64,000 nt of DNA from Pristiophorus japonicus (Eukaryota). The notes below the pieces were generated by a model. That model had not been told where the DNA came from, did not search any database, and saw nothing but the letters and a program-made list of their open reading frames with translations. The DNA lies in the NCBI RefSeq assembly GCF_044704955.1, contig NC_091981.1, positions 36,766,001 to 36,830,000 of the forward strand, read 5' to 3'. Below, piece after piece: positions 5,140 to 5,655 of this stretch; the stretch's first letter is position 1, and each line of letters begins with the position of its first letter. Position numbers and translations under genes: made by a program.

Positions 5140-5655
5140 AGCGGAGGTCTGGGGGGGTGGGGCAAAGTGTGTTGGAGGGGCGGACCTGGGGGCTTTGTGT
5201 CTCGGTGCGGGGAATGTTCAGAGTGGGGTGGATGGGTTGACTGCGCAGATGGCGGTTGGTGGATGTGGGGTGGTTGGCGTCGCGCGGGCGTGGCCCTGGG
5301 GTGGCCGGGGCTGGGGGCTCGACATCCGGGGGTGTTCGGCATTTGGGAAGGATTCTGACGGGATAGGGCGGGTTGGATGCGGGGTGGGGGGAAAGTGTTC
5401 TTGGTGGGTCCGCAGCCGGGGGGCGGGCTGTTTGGGGCTGGGATTGGGAGAGACTTCTTCTCTCTGGGAGTTGTTGGCCTGTGGGGTTCCCTGCCGCGGA
5501 GAGTTGTTGATGCCAGTTCTTGCGGCTGGGGGGATCGGGGGTGTGTGTGGGGGGTGGGAGGTGCTGGGGTGGGTGATCAGCCATGATCTTGTTGAATAAC
5601 GATGCAGGCTCGAAGGGCCGAATGGCCTACTCCTGCACCTATTTTCTATGTTTCT
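5140..5655 (+). mobile_element. Internally deleted CR1 copy with A-to-G hypermutation
   Basis: The 5' part is recognisable as the CR1 endonuclease start once G is reverted to A. The 3' part aligns to the CR1 3' ends at 2632-2988 and 30108-30361 with mostly A>G differences. The tail cctattttctatgtttcta is intact. Confidence 0.88.

What the first reader, a model, noticed from the sequence alone, without database searches (positions are those of the whole stretch)
5140..5655. Genomically fixed, A-to-G hyper-edited CR1 retrotransposon: a likely fossil of ADAR acting on LINE RNA
Seen: this G-rich stretch is a disguised CR1. Aligning 5447-5519 to the CR1 copy at 30111-30183 (73 nt, ungapped) gives 10 mismatches, of which 8 are A>G (e.g. 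ttaacc>ttggcc, ggaattccctaccgcag>ggggttccctgccgcgg) and 2 are A>T. The pattern continues downstream (ttacggctaaagggatcaagggg>ttgcggctgggggatcggggg). The 5' part translates DLGALCLGAGNVQSGVDGLTAQMAVGGCGVVGVARAWPWGGRGWGLDIRGCSAFGKD. That matches my recollection of the CR1 endonuclease start (NLKALYLNARSIRNKVDELTAQIAVNGYDVIGITETWLQGDQGWELNIQGYSTFRKD) after K>G, Y>C, N>G/D, I>V/M, T>A and E>G, all reachable by A>G. Surviving As mostly follow G or C (gagag, gatg, gatc, gac, cag). Known: ADARs deaminate A to I in dsRNA, disfavour a 5' G neighbour, and RT reads I as G; APOBEC instead gives G>A or C>T. Inference: a germline CR1 transcript was hyper-edited, then reverse-transcribed and inserted. This would be a heritable record of an ADAR-LINE interaction and a way to create GC/CpG-rich islands in one step.
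Basis: partly seen in the sequence, partly recalled or inferred. Interest (0 to 1): 0.9.

Follow-up and report, generated by a model that had tools for sequence, protein, structure and literature searches.

The report
Retrotransposon family born from RNA editing
This G-rich stretch is one copy of a family of over a thousand non-autonomous retrotransposons whose founder was a CR1-type LINE RNA with two thirds of its adenosines changed to guanosine, most likely by ADAR, and the same shark-like genome holds a source hairpin and its edited retrocopy that show RNA editing being written into heritable DNA.

Summary
Against the parent LINE consensus the window copy has 89 A>G at 124 adenosines and 2 T>C. 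But it is not a one-off edited insertion. It is a 5'-truncated member of a dispersed family (746 and 956 exact motif hits; about 1,100-1,800 copies) whose members share the same Gs. Family versus parent: 142 A>G, 17 other changes in 613 nt; editing by 5' neighbour T 31/31, A 55/70, C 27/40, G 29/65, the ADAR pattern; the 80-nt 3' tail is spared (1/16). Copies are about 3% from consensus with no less-edited intermediates: one editing event, then amplification. The element is a 37-bp tandem array, a 160-bp head and an internally deleted, edited CR1. The genome also holds 20 individually edited CR1 copies (22 pattern hits), including a retrocopy whose unedited source hairpin I found: 116/220 A>G in the paired arms, 2/202 outside. 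ADAR editing fixed by LINE reverse transcription is about 90% likely; enzyme, master locus and promoter are not shown. This scan noted single edited LINE copies in other genomes before; ten literature searches found no family founded this way.

The parts
5140..5353 (+). A>G-edited segment from the 5' end of LINE ORF2 (start of the endonuclease); the copy is 5'-truncated here, about 410 nt into the family consensus
   Evidence: 50 A>G at 69 A against the parent consensus; protein match to unedited endonuclease, E 6e-22; truncation point
5351..5353 (+). Internal-deletion junction shared by the family: about 2.4 kb of ORF2 missing, 3-nt microhomology GAT
   Evidence: Family consensus maps to two parent segments about 2.3-2.4 kb apart; junction placed at 5353
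5354..5574 (+). A>G-edited segment from the 3' end of ORF2 and the 3' UTR, with private deletions of about 27 and 35 nt in this copy
   Evidence: 39 A>G at 58 A; deletions against family consensus
5575..5656 (+). Essentially unedited LINE 3' tail: stem-loop and TTTCTATG-type repeat, the presumed recognition site of the LINE reverse transcriptase
   Evidence: 1 A>G at 16 A in the family consensus; predicted stem-loop, z -1.7, weak; role inferred from the stringent 3'-end model (PMC3747384, passages)
5136..5139 (+). AAAC, repeated at 5656-5659: candidate 4-bp target-site duplication, no better than chance on its own
   Evidence: Sequence; 4-mers are common in shuffled end pairs
30107..30361 (+).
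4193..4315 (-). Host gene exon downstream of the intron that holds the element (PF15167; the name maturin/MTURN is recalled). The element lies antisense in this intron
   Evidence: Pfam PF15167 E 8.5e-20, profile 56-95 of 131
24046..24207 (-). Probable first coding exon of the same host gene (54 codons, ATG to a GT donor, in a CpG island)
   Evidence: Only candidate of a mechanical scan; length fits profile positions 1-55; not scanned against Pfam

Best explanation
A CR1-group LINE RNA lay in long double-stranded RNA in the germ line and was hyper-edited by an ADAR (about 69% of A to inosine, none spared after U, half spared after G). LINE reverse transcriptase copied inosine as G and inserted the copy (shown for a sister event; inferred for this founder). 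The founder lost 2.4 kb of ORF2 at a 3-nt microhomology, before, during or after insertion (order not known), kept an unedited 80-nt tail, and came to lie behind a 160-bp head and a long 37-bp tandem array that is read through by a promoter not yet found (inferred). That transcript became a non-autonomous element, mobilised in trans by the parent LINE through the intact tail into about 1,100-1,800 places; copies are 5'-truncated at random, the longest inside the array. The window holds one such copy, antisense in a host intron. Shown: family, spectrum, context, single origin, structure, a source/edited-retrocopy pair. Inferred: the enzyme, the dsRNA partner of the founder, the promoter, the need for the intact tail.
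For: Spectrum: 85/128 and 57/80 A>G, 17 other changes in 613 nt, T>C 1/119. 5' neighbour T 31/31, A 55/70, C 27/40, G 29/65, p 7e-7; G depletion upstream is the known ADAR motif (PMC4365171, passages). Polarity: the A state encodes the Pfam endonuclease and is carried by 5,611 motif hits. Family: 746 and 956 exact hits on both strands across contigs, reversed-pattern controls 0; shared Gs, median 3.1% from consensus in 85 rows; G>A at edited sites 0.029 vs 0.024 at original G (non-CpG), 0.064 vs 0.069 (CpG), so no less-edited intermediates. Retroposition: variable 5' ends, fixed LINE tail, unrelated flanks, short duplications of 6 nt or more in 13 of 53 copies vs 3.9% of shuffled pairs. Process seen independently: 20 of 22 hits to an edited pattern outside the family's sequence carry A>G tracts with their own patterns; retrocopy G000:C15:11.42 Mb versus source G000:C34:4.72 Mb has 58/101 and 58/119 A>G in the two arms of a 93% complementary inverted repeat, 2/177 in the flank, 0/25 in the loop, p 1e-38; a second retroposed hairpin has both arms edited on one strand.
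Against: No unedited or partly edited progenitor of this family was found (5 hits, all edited family copies), and the family carries no antisense arm, so its dsRNA partner is not shown. The 3'-G preference of ADAR is not visible in the family (G 49/68, A 50/70, C 17/27, T 26/41) nor clearly in the source/copy pair; it appears only in the pooled single copies (G 0.51, others 0.32-0.43). 7 of the 20 single copies have 20% or more editing in the last 120 nt, so an edited tail does not forbid one insertion. In human cells no editing was found in 2.5 kb of L1 RNA and ADAR1 restricted L1 without editing (PMC5224506, passages). I did not check ADAR genes in this genome.
Confidence: 0.9

Rival explanations
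1. One reading: this very insertion came from a freshly hyper-edited CR1 transcript.
For: Spectrum and context of the window copy alone fit; such single events do exist in this genome.
Against: All 29 other loci fetched share its Gs and its deletion junction; 746 and 956 exact motif hits.
Confidence: 0.01
2. The Gs accumulated over several rounds of editing as the family kept passing through dsRNA, not in one burst.
For: Residual A sites change to G at 42/3020 against T>C 48/8719 (p 2e-5); one edited site is A in 36 of 84 copies; variant L164 keeps a few parental A and has a few extra G.
Against: No copy of 82 has more than 4 new Gs; the excess over tail A>G (9/1136) is not significant (p 0.15); the polymorphic site is linked to no other; back-changes at edited sites match those at ordinary G.
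Confidence: 0.12
3. A>G arose during reverse transcription or at the DNA level (error-prone or adenine-biased RT, nucleotide-pool imbalance, deamination in the RNA:DNA hybrid) and not by ADAR on dsRNA.
For: Strand-specific and tract-like, as an RT-linked process would be; ADARs can edit DNA in hybrids in vitro (PMC12925331, passages); the founder's dsRNA partner is missing.
Against: In the source/copy pair one RT product is edited only in the paired arms (116/220) and not in 825 nt of flank or the loop (2/202). A>C and A>T are 1 each in seg5/seg3 terms (2 in 208 A), unlike adenine-random mutagenesis. Editing of the cDNA strand would read T>C on the sense strand.
Confidence: 0.06
4. Slow compositional drift (GC-biased gene conversion, selection for G-richness) made a G-rich LINE subfamily.
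For: The family is GC- and CpG-rich and coherent.
Against: GC bias is strand-symmetric, but T>C is 1/119 against A>G 142/208; only 17 other changes separate founder and parent; dependence on the 5' base.
Confidence: 0.01
5. Sequencing or assembly artefact.
For: Clustered mismatches can be sequencing errors (PMC2873906, passages; those were G-to-A).
Against: Hundreds of copies with unrelated flanks and ordinary ageing; exact contig across the 5' junction; the G state and the deletion junction in a run of another study labelled as another organism.
Confidence: 0.003

Closest known systems
ADAR-type A-to-G hypermutation fixed in proviral DNA (Rous-associated virus, avian leukosis virus; BLV 3' LTR)
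   Same: A>G tracts near 50% in an inverted repeat of the RNA, written into DNA by reverse transcription (PMC12925331, passages; PMC8025556, passages; Hajjar and Linial 1995 seen only in a reference list).
   Different: Those are retroviruses in somatic or cultured cells and single proviruses. Here: a non-LTR element, germ-line fixation, a source locus in the same genome, and amplification of one edited product into a family.
APOBEC 'DNA editing' of LTR retrotransposons in vertebrate genomes (Knisbacher and Levanon, PMC4866542)
   Same: Deaminase hypermutation of a retroelement, integrated and inherited, found by comparing copies (passages).
   Different: C-to-U on cDNA giving G>A, screened in LTR elements; the word ADAR does not occur in its main text. 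Here A>G on the sense strand of a LINE, tied to RNA duplex.
A-to-I hyper-editing of inverted repeats in transcriptomes (Porath et al., PMC4365171)
   Same: Dense A>G clusters in dsRNA, G depleted upstream (passages).
   Different: There the change is transient, in RNA; here it is in genomic DNA.
LINE-derived non-autonomous elements with a stringent 3' end (RTE1-N1_LA type; shark HE1 SINE / HER1 LINE pair)
   Same: Short element that keeps the partner LINE's 3' end; RTE1-N1_LA joins a LINE 5' piece to it; HE1/HER1 is the shark pair (PMC3747384, table passage).
   Different: No tRNA-derived head detected (no Rfam match above gathering score in 2 copies); the 5' part is a tandem array of up to 183 units; the body is hyper-edited.
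SVA/LAVA composite retrotransposons of apes (recalled, not tested)
   Same: Non-autonomous composite with a long tandem array of 30-50-bp units, GC/CpG-rich, mobilised in trans by a LINE.
   Different: No sequence relationship claimed; partner is CR1-type with a specific tail, not L1 with poly(A); GC-richness comes from editing.

Membership tests
ADAR hyper-editing product | A>G only, on one strand | tested here: met
   142 A>G, T>C 1/119, 17 other changes in all
ADAR hyper-editing product | 5' neighbour preference, G disfavoured | tested here: met
   T 31/31, A 55/70, C 27/40, G 29/65, p 7e-7; pair: T 35/42, A 40/58, C 28/57, G 13/62
ADAR hyper-editing product | 3' G enrichment | tested here: inconclusive
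   Flat in the family and the pair; G highest in pooled single copies
ADAR hyper-editing product | Confined to double-stranded RNA | tested here: inconclusive
   Met for the C34/C15 pair (116/220 vs 2/202) and both arms of L228; no partner strand found for the founder of the window's family
ADAR hyper-editing product | Loss of editing without the enzyme; inosine in the RNA | not testable with these tools
   Needs RNA data or experiment
CR1-group LINE (parent) | ORF2 with AP endonuclease and reverse transcriptase | tested here: met
   PF03372 and PF00078 above cut-off in parent copy L115
CR1-group LINE (parent) | ORF1 with esterase domain | tested here: inconclusive
   PF13472 E 0.002, below cut-off, on a broken frame
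CR1-group LINE (parent) | 3' stem-loop and short tandem-repeat tail instead of poly(A) | tested here: met
   8-bp repeat tail in parents and family; stem-loop weakly supported
CR1-group LINE (parent) | Placement in the canonical CR1 clade rather than L2 by RT phylogeny | not tested
Autonomous CR1 (window element) | Intact ORF2 | tested here: not met
   About 2.4 kb deleted, endonuclease recoded
Non-autonomous retroposon family | Many dispersed copies with shared 3' end, variable 5' truncation, unrelated flanks | tested here: met
Non-autonomous retroposon family | Target-site duplications | tested here: inconclusive
   6 nt or more in 13 of 53 vs 3.9% control; most copies show none beyond chance
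SINE in the strict sense | Pol III head from tRNA, 5S or 7SL RNA | tested here: not met
   No Rfam match reaching a gathering score in 2 copies; the 5' ends of 10 long copies lie in the tandem array or were not reached, so the true 5' end is unseen
APOBEC-edited retroelement | G>A (C>T) clusters | tested here: not met
   G>A 3, C>T 4 in 613 nt

The most novel reading that the evidence does not exclude
In this shark-like germ line ADAR and a CR1-type reverse transcriptase together act as a recurrent, heritable mutagen: any transcript ending in a LINE tail that folds on an inverted LINE can be hyper-edited and written back, host flank included. One such product became the master of a new mobile family, so a single RNA-editing event seeded over a thousand GC- and CpG-rich, G-quadruplex-motif-bearing islands. 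This would be a transposable-element family whose sequence identity was created by RNA editing, undescribed so far, and the edited retrocopies would be a dated record of germ-line ADAR specificity.
Probability: 0.75. Interest if true: 0.9.

Novelty: new variant of a known kind. Interest (0 to 1): 0.85.

Why it matters
It gives direct genomic evidence (source hairpin beside its edited retrocopy) that A-to-I editing can enter the germ-line genome through a LINE, where human L1 work found no editing (PMC5224506). It shows that hyper-editing, usually read as defence, can found a successful new element, turning 47% GC into 69% and tripling CpG in one step. Edited copies are about 70% identical to their parent, so repeat annotation would file such families as old or novel; a three-letter scan makes the question testable in any vertebrate genome.

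Tried and rejected
First parent choice (copies like L011) was a sister subfamily with extra non-A>G differences; replaced by the subfamily. Search for an unedited progenitor at the deletion junction (exact, 4 hits) and at the head junction (one mismatch, 1 hit): all edited family copies; this excludes a multi-copy unedited family, not a single diverged locus. L164 looked unedited by A content but is an edited deletion variant. Origin of the 160-bp head: the 30 loci fetched of 40 scored hits all continue into the family and no homologue below 88% identity lies in the fetched loci; whether the head is edited is unknown. True 5' end: 9 of 10 long copies end inside the array with unrelated flanks, one array was not followed to its end; further upstream DNA was not obtained. 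Of 22 edited-pattern hits, L218 looks like chance (13 A>G, 9 T>C) and L223 is ambiguous (22/127 vs 8/110); L224 and L227 are duplicates of one event, leaving 19 independent. In 51 unselected, non-family CR1 3' ends none was hyper-edited (19 further rows there were family copies that my flag missed). Rows dropped: 6 of 94 loci (5 without a found junction, 1 duplicate), and a few kept rows were misaligned, hence the cleaner sets of 85 and 82; 7 of 60 copies lacked definable ends. Expression: no RNA holder listed. Contigs of two other samples reach the 3' flank with only 22-26 letters inside the element, too few to count as bridging. Pfam on the edited peptide: nothing. Rfam: nothing above threshold. 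Earlier-finding look-ups by sequence and by place: nothing. GC-biased conversion, APOBEC, adenine-random RT mutagenesis and artefact were considered and rejected (see rivals).

Full report
Observation. Window 5140-5590 has 10% A against 28% for the window. The 5' part translates to a peptide that aligns with the endonuclease start of an unedited LINE in the same genome (33/67 identical; Pfam PF03372 and PF00078 on that parent). The genome is 5.9 Gb; from its LINE content I infer a cartilaginous fish, where CR1-group elements make 22-34% of the genome (PMC13343379, passages). The label CR1 rather than L2 is recalled, not tested by a tree. The element lies antisense in an intron of a PF15167 gene.

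It is a family. A genome search with the stretch gave 3,648 first-look candidates; 40 were scored, nearly all over the full length. All 30 loci fetched have 10-12% A on the sense strand and share the same Gs. Two 26-nt motifs in the edited state have 746 and 956 exact hits, reversed controls 0. 38 of 58 and 47 of 88 sampled copies match these motifs exactly, which gives about 1,100 and 1,800 copies, probably low. Median distance from consensus is 3.1% in 85 rows; the window copy is 7.5%.

Anatomy. From 5' to 3': a 37-bp tandem array (0 to 183 units), a head of about 160 bp of unknown origin, 333 nt from just after ORF1 into the endonuclease, a junction with microhomology GAT that drops about 2.4 kb, 280 nt from the end of ORF2 and the 3' UTR, and an 80-nt tail ending in an 8-bp repeat. 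5' ends vary, 3' ends are fixed, flanks are unrelated, and 13 of 53 copies have duplications of 6 nt or more against 3.9% of shuffled pairs: retroposition by a LINE. Nine of 10 long copies end inside the array, so the master transcript starts in or beyond a long array that I did not reach.

The founder was hyper-edited. The parent subfamily has 5,611 exact motif hits. Family consensus (59 copies, window excluded) against parent consensus (34 and 12 copies): 85 of 128 and 57 of 80 A are G; 17 other changes in 613 nt; T>C 1 of 119; tail 1 of 16. By 5' neighbour: T 31/31, A 55/70, C 27/40, G 29/65 (p 7e-7). By 3' neighbour the rates are flat. Upstream G depletion is the published ADAR motif; downstream G enrichment is too, and is not seen here (PMC4365171, passages). 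GC rises from 47 to 69%, CpG from 11 to 37 (observed/expected 0.73), and four G-quadruplex motifs appear where the parent has none.

One event, then amplification. In 88 rows kept of 94 loci, G>A at edited sites (0.029 non-CpG, 0.064 CpG) matches G>A at original G (0.024, 0.069), and no copy keeps clustered parental A. Against this: residual A go to G 2.5 times as often as T to C (42/3020 vs 48/8719), one site is split 36/48, and variant L164 differs at a few sites. No copy has more than 4 new Gs, so at most slight later editing. No unedited progenitor was found.

The process is recurrent and tied to dsRNA. A pattern needing three TA>TG changes in a LINE region that the family lacks had 22 hits; the mirror T>C pattern had 1; the unedited pattern 42,904 (about 0.15 chance hits expected at 1.5% per site). 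20 of the 22 carry A>G tracts (for example 86/152 with 1 T>C), against 4-14 of about 600 in 8 control parents; pooled 5' rates T 0.62, A 0.59, C 0.33, G 0.25. Their patterns differ (median overlap 0.25 in 190 pairs); two are duplicates. So at least 0.05% of copies were edited on their way in. The single T>C hit, L228, read on the other strand is an antisense LINE arm followed by a sense arm with a tail, both A>G (64/138 and 64/155). L221 has the same build, and its spacer has one other match in the genome. That locus, G000:C34:4722030-4725130, holds the unedited inverted pair (376 of 406 complementary). The copy on C15 is a 1.77-kb insert that starts in the source's flank, ends at the LINE tail and interrupts another LINE. 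A>G is 58/101 and 58/119 in the arms, 2/177 in 825 nt of flank and 0/25 in the loop (p 1e-38), with 25 other differences in 1,723 nt. This rules out a general RT or nucleotide-pool bias for that event and shows duplex-restricted editing fixed by retroposition.

Raw data. A contig of run X1 covers window 4800-5230 without a difference (possibly the assembly's own sample). A contig of run X5, another study and another organism label, covers 5155-5384 in the G state across the deletion junction. Four of 22 listed runs were laid.

Mechanism. Shown: family, spectrum, context, polarity, single origin, and the source/copy pair. Inferred: that ADAR is the enzyme, that the founder's partner was an inverted or antisense LINE lost by 5' truncation, that the intact tail enabled repeated mobilisation (stringent 3'-end recognition, PMC3747384, passages; but 7 of 20 single copies have edited tails), and the promoter. 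The order of deletion and editing is open.

What is known. A>G hypermutation fixed in proviruses of avian retroviruses and BLV (PMC12925331, PMC8025556, passages); germ-line APOBEC G>A editing of LTR elements (PMC4866542, passages; PMC2873906, passages); no editing found in human L1 RNA (PMC5224506, passages). Ten searches (listings only, apart from the papers named) showed no report of ADAR-edited LINE copies in a germ-line genome, of a source/retrocopy pair, or of a family founded this way. The library lacks most subscription papers; Repbase, Dfam and supplements were not seen and could hold this family unexplained. This scan's own notes list single edited LINE copies in two other genomes, unchecked here.

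Verdict. New variant of a known kind; interest 0.85.

Noticed in passing
L229 (G000:C15:11418263-11421363) and L230 (G000:C34:4722030-4725130): Edited retrocopy and its unedited source hairpin; the copy also carries 825 nt of source flank (5' transduction by a LINE tail).
   Followed up: yes
L228:794-1891: Retroposed hairpin of two different LINE subfamilies, both arms A>G on the minus strand; source not sought.
   Followed up: partly
L206-L227: Twenty individually hyper-edited LINE insertions; in L206 editing starts abruptly about 1.3 kb from the 3' end and spares the last 250 nt; L211, L215 and L219 begin at the same parent position with different edits.
   Followed up: partly
L164 (G000:C528:32734-35766, minus): Family variant with a shorter head, a deletion in the endonuclease part, a long array and a few different edit states.
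   Followed up: partly
L197:1270-8140: 37-bp array of 183 units (6.9 kb) carried as the 5' part of one retroposed copy; the family spreads a minisatellite through the genome.
   Followed up: partly
L002, L007, L016, L020: Four family copies with near-identical flanks (three on small contigs): probably one insertion multiplied by a larger duplication or by assembly haplotypes.
   Followed up: no
L017:2103-2298: The head of this copy contains a short inverted duplication of its own sequence.
   Followed up: no
L148: A family copy whose 3' end abuts another LINE tail in the opposite orientation.
   Followed up: no
window 31301-31624 and 32460-32582, minus: Exons of a second host gene with a Ser-rich then Gln/Pro-rich stretch; resembles EAF1/EAF2 from recall, no specific Pfam hit.
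   Followed up: no
window 8000-8550: Purine-rich GC-rich minisatellite inside a repeat, meeting CpG-island thresholds.
   Followed up: no
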